DNA of 64,000 nt from Girardia tigrina (lineage: Eukaryota): positions 1 to 64,000 of the forward strand of contig MQRK01231888.1 of the NCBI GenBank assembly GCA_001938485.1, given 5' to 3'. The first letter of the stretch is position 1. Each line of letters opens with the position of its first letter. The position numbers and the translations under genes were made by a program. Below the pieces are notes generated by a model, which saw nothing but the letters and a program-made list of their open reading frames with translations, was not told the origin of the DNA and searched no databases. Positions 37,734 through 52,614 of this stretch are shown piece by piece.

Positions 37734-40700
37734 GTGAAGGACAGGTTCACTCTTAAAATTTTTGAAAAAATTATTTTTTATAAAGAATTTCTAAAATAAG
37801 GAAATATTTAAAATCAAAAGTTTTCTAAGCAATTATAATTAAAAAATATATCTTAATTAATTTTAAAAAGTTATTTTCGGAAATAATCAAATTTTAATTG
37901 TAGAGTTAAAACTTAAATTGAAATTACTTGGGAAATATTTGATTTAAAAGAAATATATAAAGACAAGGATAATTATGTTTGTACTAATTTTAAAAGTTAT
38001 TCTTAAAAATAAAATAATGAACTTTGTTGCCAGAGATGGAAATTAAAAAAAAACAGATATTTTTAAATTTTAAAGTCAGTTTGAAATTCTGCAAATTAAA
38101 GATTTGACAAATATTTAATTCTAAACAGTTTTCGAAAAAAAATTAAAATTAAAACTTTTATCATTAATGTATCGTAATAATAATAAAAATTTGAATACTG
38201 TAAATTATTTGTATTTAAATTTTATTTAAAATAATTGTAAGTAAAAAATACTTTTAAATTGTATTTAAAACAAATTGTATATTTTTGTGTTTTCAAATAA
38301 TTGTAGGTAATAAAAGGCTTTTAAACTGAAATATTGATAATAAATAAAACGTTAAAATCTTTTATTAATTAAAAACGTTTTCACAAATAAAAGAAAATAA
38401 CATTGAACTAATTCTAAAATAATAAAATCATTTTTATTAATTTAGTAAAAATATGACTACAATAAATTATGTTGGTTTTAATTTAAATTAAGTTTCATAA
38501 AATAGTGGAATGTAAATTTTCAATATAAAGAGAATGAAAAAAAATTCAATTTTTAAATAGCTTATCAGTATTTATAATTCCATATTTTTATATAAAAATC
38601 TAGTCAAAAAGAAAACGAAGAAAAGTTCCTCGACGAAAAATTGTTTGAATAATTGTTATTTGGGGTAGAAATAAAATTTGGTGTTAATGAATTAAAATTT
38701 TGATCAGGAACCCAACAATCACTATGAATTCGAATTTAAAAATCGTAACTAAAACATAAAATCCATAATATGTTCAGTAATAAATCGAAAACTCCTGTGA
38801 GTTTATGCTCGGATCTTGAGTATAAATTTGAGTGTAAATGGGTGCCACGCTACATACCTTGTAGAGACAGTCAGTAATCTCTGTAAACGGGTTCGTGAGC
38901 ATGGACATCTACGTCAAGCTTTCCAAACGAAAAGCACGTTAATAGAGGATGTCGATAGAGGCGGTAAACTTCGAGAGATCTGGAGAATCAATGGAGAAAT
39001 TCTTCGTTAAAGCAAAAAAGTTGGTGGCAAAATTGATGAAACATAAGTGGACTGAGATTGAGCTGGAGAAATGCCTTCTGATTCACGGGTCAAAAGATAG
39101 TGACGTGAAGAAAAAAATCAGATTTAGAGAAGTGAAAGAATTAACAGAAGTGAAGAATGTCATCAAGAAAGTAGACGAAGTCCGGAGAATGGAAAAGCCG
39201 GTACACACAATACGACCAACATATAGAGATGTGGTCAAAACAGGCACAACACGGAAATGGCAACAAGAAACATGACGAGGAAAGTAGATTCCTTTGGAAG
39301 ACGATCTTCTATGCAGAAAAACATCACATGTTGGAACTGTAAGGAAGTAGGACATAAAATTTTTGAATGTAAACGTCAGAGAAGATCACATGCCATACAT
39401 GTGGAGAAGAAGGTCATGTGCGAAAAGAATGCAAAAAGGTAAGATGTAGAAGATGTAACAATCCAGGACATAGAGCTGAGGAATGTTACACGAATTTGAA
39501 TAAACGATATCAAGAAAGAACGGATTATCAAAGGAGAACCCAAAGTGATAACCGACAATTCTCAGGTGTCCAAATGAAAAGCTCAGGAAACCGGAACTCA
39601 GACGACTACAGAAGAGGATTCGAAAGAGTAAGACAGATCGCGATGATGTAGAAGGAAGAATACCAGGAAGAGCAAGATCATATAGAACAAAATGAATCGT
39701 GCCAAGACGACGAGGAACAGATCTTGGCACTAGAGTAAGTTTTCTTAAACACAGACCAGATCATATAAATTATATATATAGTAGTAATAATTTTAATAAT
39801 ATGAATAAAATAAATAATAAATTAAATATAAATAACCTAAAATATAAAATTAATAAAAATAAGTCAGAATTCCTGAGTGAGCCGAACTTCTATCAGGAAC
39901 CAGAAACAAGGCACAAAGTGGTTAAGTTCATAAAAAAGGACACGTATGATGAAAGAGAATTTTTGATAATAAATAATTATGAAAATGTACCAATTTTATA
40001 CAACAGATGAGAGTGTCGACCAAGTATCAGATTTATGATAGAGGACACAGAAATTGAATGCCTATTAGATACGAGAGCAGCCTTAAATGTAATGACAAAA
40101 GAAATACTTAAGAAATTAAAGAGCACACGAATGGAACAAACAAATCAGAAATTGACAGCAGTAAATTGATTGAAAATGGATATTAGAGGAGAAATAGTAA
40201 CACTAATAAAAATTTGGAAGAAATCAGAGAAAATAAGATTTATAATAGTAAAGAATTTAAGACCAGACATGATTGGGGGCATGTCATTAATGAAGGAATT
40301 TGGAATAGAGCTACATTGAAAAGAAAATAAACAAAATGATAAGAGTAAAATTAACATATGCGAAATCGAGGCAAAGTTTGAGAAAGGAATCATAGATGAA
40401 GAACGAGGAAAGGAAGCATTGAAAATGATCGATACGCGAAACGATAAAGCACTGGAAGAGATAATTTACCAATATCAAGGCATATTCATGGCAAAGGACA
40501 GGGATATCGGCTGTATGAACTTGTTACGACACAGAATATAAACAACAGGGGACCTATAAACATAAAACCGAGAAGACAGCCATTACACTGAGAGGACAAA
40601 CTTGAGGAAGCAAACAAAAATCTAGAGGAAAATGCAGTAATTAAACCATGCAATTCACAATGGAACACACCAATAGTATGCGTTTGGAAAAAAAGACAAG

Positions 40701-41860
40701 GACGAAATGAGACTATGTCTAGATTTTAGACAGTTAAACCTAATTACAAAGAGACAGGCATTCTACATGCCAAATATAGCGGAAATGATGGATAGGCTAT
40801 ATGGAACCAAATATTTCAGCACAATAGACTCAGGAAACGCATACTACGAGGTAGAATTGGACAAGAAATCAAAGGTAAAAACGGCGTTTCCACTAAATCA
40901 GGACAATTCTGTTTTAAACGGATGCTTTTTGGGTTAGCAGCAGCCCCAGGAACATTTCAGGATCTAATGAACAAAGTATTAATACCGAAGAGAGTATCAG
41001 TTTATCTAGACGACATGTTAATAGCAACAAGCACTAAGGAAGAACATTATAACGTAGTCAAACAAGTATTTGGAAGAATAAAGGGGGCAGGATTAAGAAT
41101 CAAACCATCGAAATGTAAAATATTACGACAAGAAGTAAAATTTTTAGGACACGTTATAAATGATAAAGGGATACAGACAGACCCAGAAAAAAATAGCAGC
41201 AATAGAGAATTTTCAAAGACCCACATATATAAAAAATTTAAGAAGTTTTCTAGGAATTTGCAATTACTACAGAAGGTTTATAAATGGATATGCGAAAAAA
41301 GCTAAAATATTGGAAGGAATGTGTGGCTCGAATAAAGAAAAATTAATTTGGACAGATGCATTGGATATAGCTTTTCAGGGCATGAAAAAAGCATTGATAA
41401 CGGCACCAATATTGAGTTTTCCAAATTTCAAGAAACAGTTTATTCTAGATACAGACGCTAGTTTTGACAGCATAGGGGCGGTACTATCGCAGATAGGTGA
41501 ATCAGGCAAGGAGCAAGTAATAGTATATGGATCACATTCAATGTCATCACACGAAAAAGGATATTACATAACAAGAAAAGAACATTGGCAACGGGAAAAA
41601 AATAAACTGAGAACGGACCATAAAGCTATAACGTTCATGTTTCATACAAAGAAACCATTAAACAGGTCAATTCCAAACGTGGATGAATTACTTGAGCAGT
41701 TTAGATATAGAAATAGAAAACAGGAAAGGAGAACTAAACAACAACGCGGATATGCTATCCAGAAGAAATTTCGACGCGTGTACCAAGTGTCAAATGGAAC
41801 ATGAAGAAGCTAAATAGGGTAAGAATAAGACTAAATTGTTAGCAGTGACAGTAGAGGCAA
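37734..41860 (+). mobile_element. Decayed Ty3/gypsy retrotransposon (putative LTR, gag, PR, RT, RNase H; integrase missing)
   Basis: TG start shared with 13878; gag CWNCKEVGH / CRRCNNPGH; CLLDTRA; RLCLDFRQLN; VYLDDML; LDTDASFDSIGAVLSQ; many frameshifts. Confidence 0.92.
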
Positions 41861-41874
41861 AATGTATGTTCTGC

Positions 41875-41974
41875 ACCACCCCCGGGGGTGGTCCCCCGTT
41901 TTCATGGCAACGGTCACGGGTACCATAGCAACGGTCCCGGTTACCATAGCAATGGTCCCTGTTACCATAGCAAC
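41875..41974. promoter_or_regulatory. 18-bp GC palindrome followed by four 21-bp tandem units, each with an RFX X-box-like motif
   Basis: ACCACCCCCGGGGGTGGT (41875-41892); GTTTTCATGGCAAC (41898), GGTACCATAGCAAC (41919), GTTACCATAGCAAT (41940), GTTACCATAGCAAC (41961). Confidence 0.55.
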
Positions 41975-42313
41975 GGTTTAACCCTGTTTATAGCAATTTA
42001 ACCTGACTTATTAATCGATATGTGAAATAATTGATATGTGAAGTTCTCATTGATGAATATTTCTGTGGATTGTCATTTCCAGAAACCTTTGGTGATTTAT
42101 TATTTATTGTAAAATAAATATGTTTTGCCATGTACTTTTAACCTTTACCACCTGAAAGATACGTTTTACAATATTTACGAACCTAGCATGACAGTTTTAT
42201 CGCATGACTCTTGAAAATGCAATTAAACTATATCACCAAATTTCGTGTGATTAAAATATTATATACTTGACCACGTGTAAATGAAAACAATCTTTAGTTA
42301 ATTTATAATACAA

Positions 42314-44194
42314 ATGCTTATCTTCATCATAGTACATTATGCCTTAACTGGTTGGTTTCAGTACAATGATCCAAATGCTTGGAATACACCTGACTACCAT
42401 GACCATCATTCCATAAAAACATTAGATGAAGTTCCTGATGTATGCAGTTTATATCATGACGAAAAATGTGCCGAAAATTGGCTTTCGACAATTAATAAAA
42501 TTCAATCAATAAATATGAATAAATTGATGAATGTCGACTTTCGAAGTGCGATAAATAACAGTGTGGAAAATTCAAATTCCCTGAAAGAAATCGAATACCA
42601 ATATGAGATCTTTCATAGTACGGTTGTACAAAAGGCTAAAAAGTTTCAATTCAAGAACTTTAGTAATCCCGAAACCAGAAGAATTTTCAAGTTTCTTACT
42701 GGATCAATTGAAACATCAAATAAAACACTTTCAAAACAATTAATAGAAATAAACATGAACATTTCCTATACGTACAACAAAGCTAGACCTTGTTTTCAAA
42801 GGTGTTTAGTCCCGGGTGAAAATGGAATTCGAAAACTCTTTGCCAACGAAAGAAATTACGATGTTTTACTTGGGTTTTGGGACTCGTGGAGAGATGTCAC
42901 TGGAAAAAGGATTAAAAACTTGTTTATCGAACGAATGAAACTTTTAAATATTAAAGCCAGAGAAAACAATTACAAGAATTCAGCAAATTATGATCTTATT
43001 AAAGACTTTGAGGATGAAAATTTTGAAAGAGTCATTTTATCTTTATATAACGAAATTTTACCACTCTACAAAGAGTTGCATGGTTACGTGAGGTTTTGTT
43101 TGATGAAGTACTATCCAAATAGGTTTAATGGTAGTGGACCGATACCAGCACATATATTGGGTAACGTTTGGGGTCAGCAATGGAGTAATATATTTGATAT
43201 TATTCAAGCGTGTAGAAACAAAACAGTTTCAAGATCATTTAAAGAGGAAGTGAAGAAAAATTTAAATAATTTCAAATCAGAAAGAGAAATTTTCGTTATG
43301 GCGGAAAATTTCTTCGAATCGATTGGTTTATACAAAATGACAAAACAGTTTTGGGAAAGAAGTGTGTTTAGGAGTCGGAATGATGTGATAATGGATTGCC
43401 ACGGAAGTGCACATAATTTTATGAATAAACAAGATTTTCGAATCAAAATGTGTACTGAAAAAGCAATGGGTGATTTTGTGACAGCACATCACGAAATGGG
43501 TCACATTCAATATTATATGGCATATAAAAATTTACATTATGTTTTACAAAATTCAGCAAATGCGGGATTTCATGAAGCTATAGGTGACTTAATTGCTCTA
43601 TCAGTCCAAACTCCGGAACATATGTACAAAGTAGGCTTAATATCAAGTCTCCCGAAATCAGATGAGTTTGATATTGATTATCTTTTAGACATATCTTTAG
43701 ATAAGGTCGTTTTTCTTCCATTCGCATTAGTCATGGATAGTTTTGTCTGGAGTATATACAATGAATCTGTGCCTCCTTCAATGTTTAACGAATTTTGGTG
43801 GAATTTGAGGTATAAATATCAAGGTCTTAAACCACCTATACCAAGATCTAAAGAACATTTTGATCCAGGATCCAAATATCATGTTGCCTTCGATGTTTCT
43901 TATATTCGGTATTTTATTAGTCACTTACTTCAATTTCAGTTTTACGAAACTCTATGTAATATAAGTGGTTATAAGGGACCTCTTCATCGATGTGACTTTT
44001 ATCAGTCAAAAAAGGCCGGTAAAAAATTATTGGAAATGTTACAGTGGGGAAGAAGTAAACCATGGCCTACAATTTTAAAGTTATTTACGGGAACCTCGGA
44101 AGTAAGTGCAAAACCAATGCTAAAATTTTTTGAACCTCTTCATAAGTGGTTGGTTCAAGAAAACAGAAAATACTCTATTCCAGTTGGTTGGTGA
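42314..44194 (+). CDS. ACE: Angiotensin-converting enzyme-like peptidase (family M2), single domain, intronless, no TM anchor
   Basis: 626-aa ORF with HHEMGH and FHEAIGD zinc ligands, GPIPAHILGNVWGQQW, CHGSA and FDPGSKYH...YIRYF; ends IPVGW*; short hydrophobic N-terminus. Confidence 0.95.
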   Translation: MLIFIIVHYALTGWFQYNDPNAWNTPDYHDHHSIKTLDEVPDVCSLYHDEKCAENWLSTINKIQSINMNKLMNVDFRSAINNSVENSNSLKEIEYQYEIFHSTVVQKAKKFQFKNFSNPETRRIFKFLTGSIETSNKTLSKQLIEINMNISYTYNKARPCFQRCLVPGENGIRKLFANERNYDVLLGFWDSWRDVTGKRIKNLFIERMKLLNIKARENNYKNSANYDLIKDFEDENFERVILSLYNEILPLYKELHGYVRFCLMKYYPNRFNGSGPIPAHILGNVWGQQWSNIFDIIQACRNKTVSRSFKEEVKKNLNNFKSEREIFVMAENFFESIGLYKMTKQFWERSVFRSRNDVIMDCHGSAHNFMNKQDFRIKMCTEKAMGDFVTAHHEMGHIQYYMAYKNLHYVLQNSANAGFHEAIGDLIALSVQTPEHMYKVGLISSLPKSDEFDIDYLLDISLDKVVFLPFALVMDSFVWSIYNESVPPSMFNEFWWNLRYKYQGLKPPIPRSKEHFDPGSKYHVAFDVSYIRYFISHLLQFQFYETLCNISGYKGPLHRCDFYQSKKAGKKLLEMLQWGRSKPWPTILKLFTGTSEVSAKPMLKFFEPLHKWLVQENRKYSIPVGW

Positions 44195-44940
44195 GTGTGG
44201 AGTAACCCTTCCTCCTTGCGTTAATGTTTAATTAATGAGGCGCCTAACAGGACGATATAAACTGAATTTCCGTGAAATTAGGAAATATCGTTTATGATAA
44301 CATATTTGTTAGAGATAAAAGAGAGTTATGTATATATTTCGATTTATAATTTGTTATTTTGTATTTCTGTTGACTTTATGAAAGATTCTGCACTTAAATA
44401 TCGCATTATATTTGTAAGAGATTAATTGGAACTCACTTGTCCAATTTTATGTTTGCTTAGATTTGTATTTGATAAAAAAGTGTAAAAATAAAATACAAAA
44501 AGGATAAATTAAACGGAAATTTATAATTTTAATATTACTTTATATGAAAAAACATTTCCGTAACTTAATTGGAAACATTCTAGATTTGGTTGTAACTTCT
44601 TTTTTTCAGTAAGAACTGAATATTTTGGATTCATCAACACAATGTTTCCCGAACTTTTATTTTTCGCTTAAATATTTAGAATCCGACTAAATTCCCATCT
44701 GTTTTGAGAGAGTAATTTTTGCTAATTACTTTTTATGATTATTTATTTAGTGATTATGTATTCAACACCCCATCAGTATATCATTTATAAAACTTCTATG
44801 AAGTTGTAGAGAGTGTAGTTTGATCGTTAGTTTTTCGTTTCAGGATCTTATATATAGCGCGTCACATGTGTTACACTCTCTCTCCATAAATCTTAAATTG
44901 AGTGCAGTATTCTTTAAAATTTTCAGAAAAATTTAAAATA

Positions 44941-46229
44941 TTAGGTTGATCGAAAAATAATGGCGGTTTTTGAGCTTTATACTTTGTTTATCTACTTTGA
45001 TATGTATATAAGTTTAAATGCATTAGTGTTAGATATTATTTGAAATCTTATGCCTAGCTGTGTATTCCTATAGCCATTATTAACATATTACTGTTATTTT
45101 TTAGAATATTTACGATGCTAAATTAATAATGGAAAAAATTAAAATTCGAGCAATTTTCTTGTACGAATTTAAACTGGGTCGTAAAGCAACAGAAACGGCT
45201 CGCAATATCAATAAAGCGTTTGGCAAGGAAACAGCTTCTGAGCGCACAGTGCAACGGTGGTTCCGAAAATTTTCTGATGGAAATGAAAACCTTGAAGATG
45301 AAGAAGGTCGTAGTCGTCCAGTTGCTGTGAACAACGACAATTTGAGGACAATGATGGAAACAGATCCCCGTACAACAATCAGAGAACTTTCAGATGGGTT
45401 GGGCATTAGTCATTCAACAGTCCTGTATCATTTAAAACAACTTGGAAAAATCAAGAAACTTGATGAATGGGTTCCACATGATTTGAATGAAACTCAAAAG
45501 AACCGACGTTATGAAATTTGTTCTGCCAATCATCGTCGCAATAAAAACGATCCATTTCTTGATCGTATTGTTACCTGTGATGAGAAATGGATCCTGTATG
45601 ATAACCGACGTCGATCTGCACAGTGGTTNNNNNNNNNNNNNNNNNNNNNNNNNNNNNNNNNNNNNNNNNNNNNNNNNNAGGTTATGGTGACAGTTTGGTG
45701 GTGTGATGCTGGAATCATCCACTATAGTTTCTTGAATCCAGGTGAAACAATCACAGCGGAGAGGTACTATCATGAAATTGATGAAATGCATAAAAAAATG
45801 AAAACCCTTTGTCCGGGATTGGTCAATCGAAAAAGTCCCATCCTTCTTCAGGATAACGCTAGGCCTCATATTTCAAAAGGGACTCTTCAAAAGCTCAATG
45901 AGTTGGGCTATGAAACCATGCTTCATCCACCATATTCACCAGACCTATCGCCAACGGACTTCTACTTTTTCAGGCACTTGTACAACTTCCTACGTGAAAA
46001 AATTTTCAAAAACCAAAATGATGCTCAAAATGCCTTCCAAGAATTCGTCGCTTCGAGAACCGATGCNNNNNNNNNNNNNNNNNNNNNNNNNNNNNNNNNN
46101 NNNNNNNNNNNNNNNNAAATGTATTGATGCCAACGGTTCATACTTTGATTAATAAACTTTTGTTTCTGTGAATTTGCACGTCTTTAAAGTTTGTGTCCCA
46201 AAACCGCCATTATTTTTCGACCAACCTAA
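44941..46229 (+). mobile_element. Full-length mariner (cecropia/Hsmar1-like), transposase about 45129-46152, possibly intact
   Basis: TA|TTAGGTTGATCGAAAAATAATGGCGGTTTT TIRs|TA; WVPHDL, VTCDEKW, QDNARPH, YSPDLSPTDF (D,D34D); no stops in the sequenced parts, two small N gaps. Confidence 0.95.
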
Positions 46230-47950
46230 TATTTAAAAATCCAATCCTTCAATCATTAGTTAAAGTTATAAATTTTATAATAATATCGTGAACTCAGTTT
46301 GAAAGCATGTTCAACAATAAATCTCTTACACCTTTAGCGCTGTTGTCGAATTTCGTTTATCTATATACATGTGGGATAAAACTTGTATCATGTTTATGAG
46401 AGATTACAGGAACTAAGTCGCAATGAAGATGAAAATAATATGAAAGTATTATAATACGAATAAAAGTTTTCAAAATTTTCGATTTTTGTGCATTTGATTT
46501 AAGAATTATTCGGAGAGAACAATATGTAAATAGTTATAAATAAAACACTTTGATCAATGACTTTTTAAAATATAATAAGTTTAATTAGTTAATTTCATAA
46601 AACCAATTCTTATTTAATTAAATATTTAAATTGTCTGATTGATAAATTGTAGAAAGAATTGCAACACTTGAAAGTTTCTGAATGAAGTTTTAATCTTTCA
46701 AACTTTAAAGAACCATCGATATCTCAAAATAAATCTTCATAAACTTAGAGAAACTTTGGATAAGCTCGAATTCGCTGTGTTTTTACCAGCAAAAATCTGC
46801 ATGCAAACATTCAGATTAAATTTCAGTACTTTGCTTAATATTTAGACCAAAACATCTGGAGTATGACAACGGATGGATTCGTTATAATGAACAATGAAGG
46901 GTGAATGGGTTAAAGAATGGGTTATTCTTGACACATTTTATAGTACTAGACATGGGTTCACTAAAACTGTCAATTGAGATTGAACCTTGATGTAATGAAA
47001 TAAGCTACCCTAATACTGTTTAAAAATTTACAAACATACAATTTACATACATGGCTCAACGTCTTTTTATGTCATAAGTAAATAGAGATCGGAACTGTAA
47101 AGAAATATACTAGGAACATTTCACCACAGCCTTTTCGAGGGAACTGAATATCAATTAGACATTAATACTTTGAGTAGCTTAATATAAATACTCTATCAGT
47201 TCATTTAGGTAAGGCAGGCTTTGCAAAAGAGTTACATTGACCTGAAATACTCGGATGCTATCATAAAACAAGATTTCGGAATAATTTCATACACGTCTTA
47301 AAAACAGAAACTCCGTCGTGAAATTGTTGTGACTTACTTTCATCGTGATGCATATACGTTGATTTAAGAAGTTAAAGTGATGTAGGAACTTCAGAACATC
47401 CTTTTTCTTCTGAAGTATATTTCAGAAAATATTTGTGATTGAGTCTGCAGGAGAAGACCCTGTACAAATTTAGTTTCTTACATTATTACTAAGCGTTAAT
47501 AAATTATATTTAAGTAAAGATAAGGACAAATTGTGTTTTAAATGTGTTTTTTTCACAGCAAAAATGAAAAAAATAGCATTTAGTTAATTAAAAAAGTTGA
47601 AAATTCAAATTTTCTTCAAAATAAGAACATTGTTTGTAAATGTTTCTAAACTACTTTCAAATAAGTTGGTAAAATTGCTTTCAAACCAACAGATTCATTT
47701 TCCCATTAAATTAGTGACGCAAATATCGTAAGATTGTAGTTCTCAGAGAACAATAAAAAATAAACCATGAGAATACCAACAAAATGTATCTGTGGTGTTC
47801 ATAAAAACGCGAATCATACTCAATTCCTTGTAAGTTAACTAGTGATTCAAATCCGAAAAAGATTGAAAGTATGAAAATACAAAAAAATAATGAAAAATAT
47901 TTAATCAAAATATTCAAATAGATAAAACATAAATTTTAAAAGACAGTTAT

Positions 47951-49981
47951 TTACCATCCGACATGAATTTTTAATTTTTCGTTTCTCTCTTTCAACCATT
48001 TATAAAGAGGATCGAAGAACTTTAACAAAGAGTCAGACTTGATTTCTTCGTTACCTGTTAAATTTTTTAATGTCTTCTTCCAATGTTGACGTTTTCCTTC
48101 TTTCAACATATCTAACAATTTTCTTCCTGCTTCTTTCGACTCATAGTAATCACATCGATGTAAAGGACCTTCATAACCACTTATATTGCACATCGATTCA
48201 TAAAATTGGAATTGAGATATGAAACTAATAAAATATCGAATATAAGAAATACCGAATGCAATATGATATTTTGCTCCAGGATCGAAATCCTTTTCCGTTC
48301 TTTCTACAGGAGGTTTAATTCCTTGATATTTCTCTCTCAACTTCCACCAATGTTCATTTAGTTTAGACGTTGGTACGGATCCATTGTATACTCCCCATAT
48401 GTAACTATCCATTATTAAAGCAAAGGGTAAAAATGCAACTTTATCCAATGCTGTTGCCATTAAATATTCTATATCGAAATCTTCGGTTTTAGGTATACTT
48501 GAAATAAGACCAATTTTGTGAAGATGTTCCGGTGTATTAACAGACAATGCAATTGTATCACCAACAGCTTCATGGAATGCAGCATTGGCAGAATCTCTAA
48601 AAACAAAAGGTAAATTTGCATAAGCCATAAAATATTCAATATGGCCCATTTCATGATGGATTGTAGAAAGGTCTTCCAGATTCCTCCTAGTGCACATTGA
48701 TATTCTGAAATCTCTTCCATTCATAAAATCGTGTGCACTTCCATGACAGTCCATTATTTTATCTTTCGGTTGTTGTATAACACTTCTTTCCCAAAACTCG
48801 TCCGTCATTTTATACATTCCAATCGACACAAAAAATTCTTCNNNNNNNNNNNNNNNNNNNNNNNNNNNNNNNNNNNNNNNNNNNNNNNNNNCACTTCTTT
48901 CCCAAAACTCGTCCGTCATTTTATACATTCCAATCGACACAAAAAATTCTTCTGCTATTTTAAATAATTCTTTAACAGAATACCTTTTAAGATTTTCATT
49001 AGCTTCTGAAAGATAATTATTATCATTCGATATTTCATTACACTGTTTTATTATAGGAAAGATATTTCCCCATTGTTGAGCCCAAACATTTCCAAATAAA
49101 TGTGCAGGAATCGATCCGTTTTGATCGAATCTTCCCGGATAATATTTTGCGAGACAATATCTAACATAAGCGTGTAATTCTTTGTAAAGAGGTAAAATAT
49201 TTTCGTAAAGTTTAAATACTGTTTTATCGAAATCGTTTTCTTCGAATTCAGTCATAAGGTTAAATGAAGCAGCGTCTTTATGACCGTTTTCTCGCGCCCC
49301 TGTGTTTTCTAAGCTCATTTTCTCAACAAACAAATCCCTTATTTTCGAACCGGTAACATTGTTCCAAGATACCCAGAATCTGCTCAATTTATCATAATCT
49401 CTCTCCTTTCGGAACAAATCTATAATTCCCGATTCTCCCGGTCTCAAACATTCAGGTGCACAAGGTTTACCATTGTTATAAATTCGAGATATATCATTCT
49501 CAATTTCGACGATTCTCTTCGAAATAGATTCATTTTTACTTACCGAAGTAAACGATAATAATTTACATATTCGACGAATTTCAAACGATTTGAAGGTTTT
49601 CCATTTAAACTTTCCAGCTTTTAATTTTAGTAATTTCGATACTTTCTTTCCTTTCACTTGAAATCTTTTTAACAATTTTAAATTCTTTTCGTTAATATCC
49701 GAGAGATAATTATAATTTACATTCGACAATCGATTTTCATTCCGTAATATAATTTTCTCAATTTCTTCGTGCCATTCTTTAGCACAGTTTTCATCCGAAT
49801 AATCCTCACAAATGTCGGGATAACTTTCCAGATCCGTTAAATTATAATAACTGTCGAAAATATTCGATTTACGAGAATCGTTCTCATCATTAATCAAAGC
49901 TTCTATTTCAGAATCAATGGATTTATCCGAGTAAACTGAAAGAATAAATGTAAGTAACGTAATGTGCTGGTAGAACTTCAT
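47951..49981 (-). CDS. ACE: Second ACE-like M2 peptidase, single domain, intronless, with signal peptide (about 639 aa after removing the gap artefact)
   Basis: MKFYQHITLLTFILSVYS signal-like N-terminus; HHEMGH, FHEAVGD, FDPGAKYH...YIRYF; ends IHVGW*. A 61-nt sequence is duplicated on both sides of the N gap at 48842-48891. Confidence 0.95.
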   Translation of the reverse strand: MKFYQHITLLTFILSVYSDKSIDSEIEALINDENDSRKSNIFDSYYNLTDLESYPDICEDYSDENCAKEWHEEIEKIILRNENRLSNVNYNYLSDINEKNLKLLKRFQVKGKKVSKLLKLKAGKFKWKTFKSFEIRRICKLLSFTSVSKNESISKRIVEIENDISRIYNNGKPCAPECLRPGESGIIDLFRKERDYDKLSRFWVSWNNVTGSKIRDLFVEKMSLENTGARENGHKDAASFNLMTEFEENDFDKTVFKLYENILPLYKELHAYVRYCLAKYYPGRFDQNGSIPAHLFGNVWAQQWGNIFPIIKQCNEISNDNNYLSEANENLKRYSVKELFKIAEEFFVSIGMYKMTDEFWERSXXXXXXXXXXXXXXXXXEEFFVSIGMYKMTDEFWERSVIQQPKDKIMDCHGSAHDFMNGRDFRISMCTRRNLEDLSTIHHEMGHIEYFMAYANLPFVFRDSANAAFHEAVGDTIALSVNTPEHLHKIGLISSIPKTEDFDIEYLMATALDKVAFLPFALIMDSYIWGVYNGSVPTSKLNEHWWKLREKYQGIKPPVERTEKDFDPGAKYHIAFGISYIRYFISFISQFQFYESMCNISGYEGPLHRCDYYESKEAGRKLLDMLKEGKRQHWKKTLKNLTGNEEIKSDSLLKFFDPLYKWLKERNEKLKIHVGW

Positions 49982-52465: not shown

Positions 52466-52591
52466 ATGGTAACGAAAGTCGATTTTAAAGTTGTTGTTTT
52501 GGGCAAAGAATGTGTCGGTAAAACGGCAGCAGTCGATCTATTTTTGAAAGAGAATTTCCACGCGAATAACGCTTATCATCCAACGATCGGG
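52466..52591 (+). pseudogene. RAB24: Rab24-like small GTPase first exon; downstream exons not found
   Basis: MVTKVDFKVVVLGKECVGKTAAVDLFLKENFHANNAYHPTIG then GT: P-loop and switch-I TIG, resembling Rab24 KVVMLGKEYVGKT. Confidence 0.7.
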
Positions 52592-52614
52592 GTAGCGATA
52601 ATATTCTGATTATA

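What the first reader, a model, noticed from the sequence alone, without database searches (positions are those of the whole stretch)
42314..49981. Convergent pair of intronless, anchorless single-domain ACE genes
Seen: two intact ~1.9-kb M2 peptidase ORFs with no introns, in a genome whose neighbouring gene has about 19. They lie tail-to-tail and both stop right at the domain-terminal VGW with no stalk or TM segment. They have diverged yet both stay open, which implies purifying selection. Known: vertebrate ACE genes are intron-rich, soluble single-domain ACEs occur in insects (Ance), and bacterial M2 homologues exist. Inference: retroposition (or, less likely, horizontal transfer) then inverted duplication produced a lineage-specific secreted peptide-processing system. 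This is the strongest candidate for an undescribed system in the window.
Basis: partly seen in the sequence, partly recalled or inferred. Interest (0 to 1): 0.7.

Follow-up and report, generated by a model that had tools for sequence, protein, structure and literature searches.

The report
Intronless flatworm ACE family, two lids
The two genes are real single-exon, anchorless ACE-type peptidase genes, two of eight such copies in what is likely a planarian genome, likely inherited from an ordinary flatworm gene rather than from bacteria, and one subgroup carries a nearly identical catalytic body behind two different old 'lid' segments.

Summary
Observation confirmed with one correction. Both ORFs are single-domain M2 peptidases that end at VGW-stop. 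Gene 2 is 639 aa, not 676: 111 bases at its N gap are an assembly artefact.

The 'convergent pair' is not a system. All 8 ACE loci found in this genome lack introns in their sequenced parts, and no intron-bearing parent was found. Later copies arose by DNA duplication (shared flanks). The proteins group with Macrostomum ACE, which is also anchorless, and a clade with bacteria is rejected (AU p=0.005). Zinc, catalytic and dipeptidyl residues are intact and dN/dS is about 0.15. Schmidtea has four annotated, epidermis-labelled ACE transcripts, and an ace RNAi phenotype is published.

What appears new: family-wide intron loss, and a mosaic in gene 2's subfamily. A 1.44-kb homogenised tract starts at codon 148, the lid/body hinge, so one catalytic body sits behind two old lids (dS 1.2-1.6 against about 0.02 just behind). 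Whether the lids change substrate choice is untested.

The parts
42314..44194 (+). Gene 1 (ACE-A): single-exon M2 peptidase, 626 aa, short predicted signal peptide (about residues 1-13), ends VGW-stop
   Evidence: AF2 model pLDDT 93, TM-score 0.87-0.89 to human ACE domains
42281..42301 (+). In-frame upstream ATG closed by TAA after 6 codons; possibly a relic of a longer signal peptide, or a short uORF
   Evidence: the X1 contig covers it without a listed difference
43490..43576 (+). Zinc site of gene 1: HEMGH and the downstream Glu (human C-domain H383, E384, H387, E411)
42210..44404 (+). Span covered collinearly, without gaps, by contigs of RNA-like runs (X1 42210-44389; X7 42308-44404; X8 in four pieces 42310-44379); probable transcript with about 200 nt after the stop
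   Evidence: table 8; the runs are only guessed to be RNA
44932..46238 (+). Mariner transposon (39-nt TIRs, transposase frame 45129-46127 with two N gaps) between the two genes; incidental
47951..49981 (-). Gene 2 (ACE-B, alpha type): single-exon M2 peptidase, 639 aa once the artefact is set aside, predicted signal peptide, ends VGW-stop
48781..48891 (.). Assembly artefact: 61-nt duplicated overlap plus 50 N
   Evidence: skipped by contigs of 4 of 4 runs; 100% direct repeat with spacing 111
47988..49540 (-). Homogenised (gene-converted) catalytic body shared with four other B-type copies; CDS nt 442 to about 1883
49541..49981 (-). Paralogue-specific 5' part of gene 2: signal peptide plus lid helices (alpha type); about 70-76% DNA identity to the beta type over CDS nt 70-435
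   Evidence: boundary maps to human C-domain residue about 121-122
38949..41977 (+). Decayed LTR-retrotransposon-like remains (RT and RNase H pieces) and a short dispersed repeat ending 336 nt before gene 1; judged incidental

Best explanation
These are two intact single-exon, anchorless ACE-type (M2) peptidase genes of an eight-locus intron-free family, likely inherited from the ordinary flatworm ACE and predicted to encode secreted zinc enzymes that clip dipeptides from the C-terminus of small peptides, most likely at the epidermis or in its secretions. Shown: ORF structure, family size, active-site residues, fold, purifying selection, grouping with Macrostomum ACE, and the mosaic in gene 2's subfamily. 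Inferred history: the ancestor was already soluble and single-domain; it lost all introns once, before the oldest duplication (a retrocopy replacing its parent, or cDNA-mediated loss in place); DNA duplications then gave types A (gene 1), C and B. Within type B, gene conversion likely copied a 1.44-kb catalytic body between two old paralogues and left each with its own upstream DNA, signal peptide, lid and 3' end. The tail-to-tail arrangement is likely a by-product of a three-gene cluster with mixed orientations.
For: Five own-genome searches (whole protein, Pfam model, Macrostomum protein, two 41-69 aa pieces) return the same 8 loci and no exon-sized orphan hit; the one extra hit was E 1.9 with stops. 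The same tool finds exon-split M3 peptidase genes (9 exon-sized matches on 3 contigs). H383, E384, H387, E411, H353, H513, Y523 and the dipeptidyl S2' triad Q281/K511/Y520 are present in 6 of 6 paralogues aligned (roles from PMC7642307). The fold is that of ACE. Trees: paralogues form one clade that joins Macrostomum ACE at SH-aLRT 98; holding them with bacteria is rejected, p-AU 0.005. An N-terminal Cys pair and a CL-x-x-GE motif are shared with Macrostomum. Paralogues share flanks: g4/g5 94% over 2.7 kb, gene 2/pseudogene 89% over 2.25 kb. Mosaic: 102-106 differences in 360 nt before CDS nt 442 against 4-6 in 319 nt after it; lid dS 1.17-1.60 against 0.015-0.022 in the next 216-222 codons; read contigs fork at the same base, 49540. 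Four S. mediterranea ACE transcripts are all labelled epidermal.
Against: Expression is likely, not shown: the runs that cover the genes are only guessed to be RNA, and a splice control could not be obtained. Gene 1's signal peptide is short (13 residues) and was judged by hydropathy only. No enzyme assay exists. The epidermal site is borrowed from Schmidtea transcripts whose orthology to these genes was not tested. All trees are quick searches with long branches, so attraction among fast flatworm sequences is possible. The intron state of Macrostomum and Schmidtea ACE genes could not be read, so the timing and mechanism of intron loss are open. The assembly is fragmented (255,254 contigs), so a parent could be missing. 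One locus (g7) has a 320-N gap and one (g6) is cut by contig ends.
Confidence: 0.72

Rival explanations
1. Horizontal transfer from bacteria: a bacterial M2 gene (intronless, soluble, ending at GW-stop) entered a flatworm ancestor and was amplified.
For: No introns and no parent. The bacterial-type hits mostly end exactly at GW-stop, as these genes do.
Against: Bacterial rows form their own clade at 100. The queries group with Macrostomum at 98, and the AU test rejects queries plus bacteria (p 0.005; 17 rows, 4 of them bacterial). Several animal ACEs also end at or within 2 residues of GW (Rotaria, Hypsibius, Nematostella, Ciona models; Brachionus at GF).
Confidence: 0.04
2. One reading: a recent, lineage-specific retrocopy followed by an inverted duplication that made a functionally coupled convergent pair.
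For: Both genes are intronless and adjacent; retroelement remains lie next to gene 1; other notes report retro-capture in this genome (unchecked).
Against: Synonymous sites between the two are saturated (dS about 2.7), and gene 2 is closer to the C240787 gene (63%) than to gene 1 (51%). Six more intronless loci exist. No A-run of 8 or more lies within 500-650 nt after either stop. The stops are 3.76 kb apart, and gene 1's contigs end about 200 nt after its stop.
Confidence: 0.08
3. The lid/body mosaic is an artefact of a short-read assembly that placed one collapsed body between different 5' and 3' ends.
For: The bodies of gene 2, g6 and g7 are 99-100% identical over long stretches, and gene 2 and g7 resume after their gaps at the same codon.
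Against: In independent runs, gene 2's own 5' contig (49511-49864, no differences; X1, X7) overlaps the shared body contig by 30 bases. An 1,860-nt X8 contig runs through the body and then continues into a different 5' sequence. The joint at 49540 appears in 4 of 4 runs. g4 and g5 bodies carry their own variants. Which variant belongs to which copy may still be misassigned.
Confidence: 0.08
4. Flatworm ACE was already intron-free or intron-poor long before planarians, so no retroposition is needed and the gene structure is an old, routine trait of the lineage.
For: Every copy here is intronless and the loss predates saturated divergence. The closest outside relative (P0141, 54-55% identity, flagged as a contaminant of an isopod assembly) has 341 codons on a 1,555-nt contig, which leaves little room for introns.
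Against: Not tested: no flatworm genome other than G000 could be read. Macrostomum gene models differ in length (635, 641, 719 aa), which may reflect spliced models.
Confidence: 0.25

Closest known systems
Macrostomum lignano ACE (PAA76064.1, P0133)
   Same: Single M2 domain, predicted signal peptide, no transmembrane segment (12 residues after GW), shared N-terminal Cys pair and CL-x-x-GE motif; nearest named clade in the trees.
   Different: 37-39% identity; short tail after GW; intron state not read.
Schmidtea mediterranea ace transcripts (SMED30002442, 30034506, 30006268, 30014565; PMC11649923)
   Same: Several ACE paralogues in a planarian; all four labelled epidermal; ace RNAi gives head regression and fewer AGAT-1+ cells.
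   Different: Sequences and gene structure were not available, so orthology is untested; the passages and table rows I saw say nothing on introns, anchors or mosaics.
Human ACE C-domain / testis ACE
   Same: Fold (TM-score 0.87-0.88), zinc and catalytic residues, S2' triad.
   Different: Human ACE has a stalk and TM segment and many introns (recalled). Here Y224 of chloride site 2 is Phe in 6 of 6 paralogues, R186 is kept only in gene 1, and A354, W357, Q369 and P519 differ.
Soluble single-domain invertebrate ACEs (Drosophila AnCE/ACER, leech TtACE, spider, scorpion and snail ACEs)
   Same: One active site; soluble forms are described in insects (PMC3235092); many copies are recruited to secretions in the snail Colubraria (85 contigs, PMC4460706).
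   Different: No family-wide intron loss or lid-boundary conversion in the passages seen. That TtACE is soluble is recalled; the paper is not held.
Bacterial M2 peptidases (Xanthomonas XcACE type)
   Same: Intronless, soluble, end at GW-stop.
   Different: Separate clade; union with these genes rejected.

Membership tests
Peptidase family M2 (ACE-like gluzincins) | Full-length match to the Peptidase_M2 profile | tested here: met
   627 and 659 bits against a cut-off of 23
Peptidase family M2 (ACE-like gluzincins) | HEXXH plus downstream Glu zinc ligand | tested here: met
   HEMGH and E411 equivalent in 6 of 6 paralogues aligned
Peptidase family M2 (ACE-like gluzincins) | Two-subdomain helical ellipsoid fold with N-terminal lid | tested here: met
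   AF2 model of gene 1, pLDDT 93.4; Foldseek TM-score 0.87-0.89, rmsd about 2 A to ACE domains. Gene 2 was not folded.
ACE-type dipeptidyl carboxypeptidase (versus ACE2-type) | S2' triad Gln281, Lys511, Tyr520 (ACE2 has Arg, Leu, Phe) | tested here: met
   Q, K, Y in 6 of 6 (PMC7642307 passage)
ACE-type dipeptidyl carboxypeptidase (versus ACE2-type) | Chloride site 2 (Arg522, Tyr224) | tested here: inconclusive
   Arg kept, Tyr replaced by Phe in 6 of 6; effect on chloride activation unknown
ACE-type dipeptidyl carboxypeptidase (versus ACE2-type) | Measured dipeptide release and captopril/lisinopril sensitivity | not testable with these tools
   needs recombinant enzyme
Soluble secreted ACE | Signal peptide present, no C-terminal TM segment | tested here: inconclusive
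   No TM segment: met. Signal peptide: hydrophobic N-terminus by hydropathy only (9-residue maximum 2.3-3.3); no SignalP run; gene 1's is short.
Retrogene (processed copy) | All introns absent | tested here: met
   No intron in the sequenced parts of 8 of 8 loci
Retrogene (processed copy) | Intron-bearing parent in the same genome | tested here: not met
   None in 5 searches, with a working control; the assembly is fragmented
Retrogene (processed copy) | Poly(A) remnant or target-site duplication | tested here: not met
   No run of 8 or more A within 506 and 650 nt after the stops; no flanking direct repeat of 18 nt or more. Such marks decay in old retrogenes.
Retrogene (processed copy) | Outgroup orthologue carries the introns | not testable with these tools
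   No other flatworm genome could be read
Horizontally acquired bacterial gene | Nests within or sister to bacterial homologues | tested here: not met
   (p-AU 0.005)

The most novel reading that the evidence does not exclude
Loss of introns turned planarian ACE into a modular, recombining cassette. Gene conversion homogenises the catalytic body up to the lid hinge while selection keeps two ancient lids (dN/dS about 0.2), so the animal secretes enzymes with one active site but different gates: a natural lid-swap that decides which peptides enter.
Probability: 0.2. Interest if true: 0.6.

Novelty: new variant of a known kind. Interest (0 to 1): 0.3.

Why it matters
As a pair of soluble ACE genes this is ordinary. 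Two points have some value. First, a whole ACE family without introns and without a found parent is a candidate for an orphan retrogene that replaced its source and then expanded. Second, structural papers leave open whether the ACE lid controls peptide entry (PMC8048788). The alpha and beta type-B proteins differ mostly in signal peptide and lid, so they form a ready-made natural pair to test that. For planarian biologists, near-identical bodies mean that RNAi and in situ probes against type-B genes would hit all copies unless aimed at the first 440 nt.

Tried and rejected
No RNA holder is on record for the stretch. X1, X7 and X8 have little or no cover in the unique intergenic bins where DNA-like X5 has cover; this is not used as proof of expression. 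Summed contig depth in X5 is about seven times higher over gene 2's body than over gene 1. It fits six type-B loci, but the tool states that depth is no copy number, so it is not counted as evidence. A splice control on the neighbouring gene could not be obtained, so the RNA nature of these runs stays a guess.

Three homologue searches and one representative search listed no named planarian ACE among their top 120-150 rows, so orthology to Schmidtea genes was not tested. The careful tree did not finish; quick trees were used.

Diversifying selection in the cleft patch (codons 370-490) was considered and rejected: dN/dS stays at 0.15-0.25. Gene 1 as the last exon of a two-domain ACE was considered because its N-terminus aligns with the human linker, and rejected because contigs run unbroken through its 5' end. 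A link to the upstream retroelement was rejected because intron loss predates all paralogues and the repeat ends at 41977.

Literature searches found no paper on intronless or recombining flatworm ACE genes; the library lacks most subscription journals. Passages of 10.1101/167346, PMC5977470 and PMC8400842 were irrelevant. Earlier-finding look-ups by sequence, words and place returned nothing on these genes.
Full report
Observation. Gene 1 (42314-44194, +) encodes 626 aa. Gene 2 (47951-49981, -) reads 676 codons across a 50-N gap. Each is one Peptidase_M2 domain, ends at VGW-stop and has no hydrophobic C-terminal window. Contigs of 4 of 4 laid runs skip 48781-48891, a 61-nt exact duplicate plus the gap, so gene 2 is 639 aa. 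The two share 316 of 625 residues. By Nei-Gojobori counting dN is 0.41 and dS about 2.7, a ratio near 0.15 with saturated synonymous sites. A mariner fills 1.3 kb of the 3,756 nt between the stops.

Transcripts. No holder is on record as RNA. Contigs of X1, X7 and X8 (three studies; RNA guessed or kind unknown) cover gene 1 collinearly and stop at 44389, 44404 and 44379, where the DNA-like run X5 continues to 44959. That is a weak hint of an unspliced transcript with about 200 nt after the stop and no splice to a TM exon. A direct splice control for these runs is missing, so expression is likely, not shown.

Family. Searches of the own genome with gene 1 (11 matches from 18 candidates), the Pfam model (11 from 10), Macrostomum ACE (11 from 10) and two short conserved pieces (8 from 8; 9 from 10, the ninth at E 1.9 with stops) give the same 8 loci. 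They are: gene 1, gene 2, g7 on the same contig at 74.9-76.9 kb (inverted relative to gene 2, 320-N gap), g3 on C240787, g4 and g5 on C250528, g6 on a 1.3-kb contig cut at both ends, and a pseudogene on C178417. None has an intron in its sequenced part. The same tool returns exon-sized matches for M3 peptidases, so it can see intron-split genes. Paralogues share flanks, which marks DNA duplication rather than repeated retroposition. No poly(A) remnant follows either window gene.

Origin. Trees were quick IQ-TREE searches on rows I chose: 45 database rows from the 120 hits (near-duplicate mammalian and bacterial rows and most multi-domain rows left out) plus 5 paralogues, then 43 rows and 17 rows. 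Unnamed rows were labelled bacterial by me from their likeness to named bacterial rows. The paralogues form one clade. Their sister is P0141, a protein flagged as a contaminant of an isopod assembly. Together with Macrostomum ACE and an unnamed Logan protein they form a branch at SH-aLRT 98. Bacteria form a separate clade at 100, and holding queries and bacteria together costs 36 log units (p-AU 0.005). Long branches could inflate the flatworm grouping, but shared motifs support it. Ending at GW is the bacterial norm, yet several animal ACEs end within 0-4 residues of it, and Macrostomum's has a 12-residue tail and no TM segment. An anchorless single domain is therefore likely the inherited state. 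That the genome is a planarian rests on this tree, on its AT-rich composition, and on unchecked earlier notes.

Function. All zinc, catalytic and S2' residues are present in 6 of 6 paralogues aligned to human testis ACE. By PMC7642307 (passages) this points to dipeptidyl carboxypeptidase rather than ACE2-like activity. Tyr224 of chloride site 2 is Phe throughout, so chloride dependence may differ (inference). The model of gene 1 matches ACE domains at TM-score 0.87-0.89. In S. mediterranea four ACE transcripts are all labelled epidermal, and ace RNAi caused head regression and fewer AGAT-1+ cells (PMC11649923: one main-text passage, a figure legend and table rows). I infer secreted processing or inactivation of small peptides at the epidermis. 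The substrates are unknown.

The mosaic. Gene 2 and the pseudogene have one 5' type (alpha); g4, g5 and g7 have another (beta). Between types, DNA identity is 67-76% over CDS nt 70-435 and 87-100% per 100-nt window from 436 to about 1860, then falls again at the 3' end. The best single breakpoint is nt 442, codon 148, window 49540, in 3 of 3 comparisons. Read contigs fork at the same base, and the shared body contig is 1,442 nt. Lid dS is 1.17-1.60 with dN 0.26-0.28, against dS 0.015-0.022 in codons 148-369. Codon 148 aligns to human C-domain residue 121-122 and, through the alignment, to the loop after helix 119-129 in the gene 1 model. PMC8048788 (passages) puts the lid-to-subdomain-2 hinge near N-domain residue 100 and suggests that the lid may control peptide entry; the offset of about 22 to C-domain numbering follows from the H361/H383 correspondence in that paper. 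Cautions: one historical event can explain all three beta copies, so the match to the hinge is a single observation, and ACE has several hinges. The retained 5' part also holds promoter and signal peptide, so expression rather than lid function may be what is kept. Collapsed repeats may misassign variants among copies.

Comparison and verdict. Soluble single-domain ACEs are known in insects and bacteria (PMC3235092 and PMC3354321, passages), and multi-copy ACE in a secretion is known in a snail (PMC4460706, passages). Eight searches found nothing on intronless or recombining flatworm ACE genes in the held library. The genes are members of family M2 by every sequence and fold test run. They fail two retrogene tests (parent, poly(A)) and the horizontal-transfer test. 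What remains is a new variant of a known kind: a wholly intronless ACE family with a lid-bounded conversion tract. Interest 0.3.

Noticed in passing
window 42281-42313 (+): An in-frame ATG 11 codons upstream of gene 1's start is cut off by one TAA. The stretch reads like the front of a longer signal peptide, so gene 1 may have shortened its signal peptide.
   Followed up: partly
P0141 (MCL4163149.1): The closest outside relative (54-55% identity) is flagged as an unverified contaminant in an isopod assembly and groups with these genes; probably from a flatworm associated with the isopod (inference).
   Followed up: partly
G000:C178417:43290-45255 (L018): Alpha-type ACE pseudogene with several stops and frameshifts, about 89% identical to gene 2 including flanks.
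   Followed up: partly
gene 2 codons 370-490 against g4, g5 and the pseudogene: A patch around the zinc site is more divergent than the rest of the homogenised body (dS 0.13-0.33) and includes cleft positions 357, 377, 391 and 403; probably unconverted remnants; dN/dS not raised.
   Followed up: partly
lid segments of types B and C: The lids are strongly basic (net +5 to +15, against +1 in gene 1 and 0 in human testis ACE); may matter for binding acidic mucus or substrates.
   Followed up: no
window 45129-46127 (+): Mariner with 39-nt TIRs and a transposase frame that is open apart from two N gaps; very abundant in the laid runs.
   Followed up: partly
window 52466-52594 (+): Looks like the first coding exon of a small Rab-type GTPase (name from recalled motif, not searched), 2.5 kb upstream of gene 2 and divergent from it.
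   Followed up: no
window 2971-36300 (+): Intron-rich gene with an IQ-like motif and leucine-rich repeats (labels from recalled motifs); its exons were not counted.
   Followed up: no
window 41850-41977: End of a dispersed repeat with 21-nt subterminal tandem units; 40 of 1,647 candidates were scored and all matched.
   Followed up: partly
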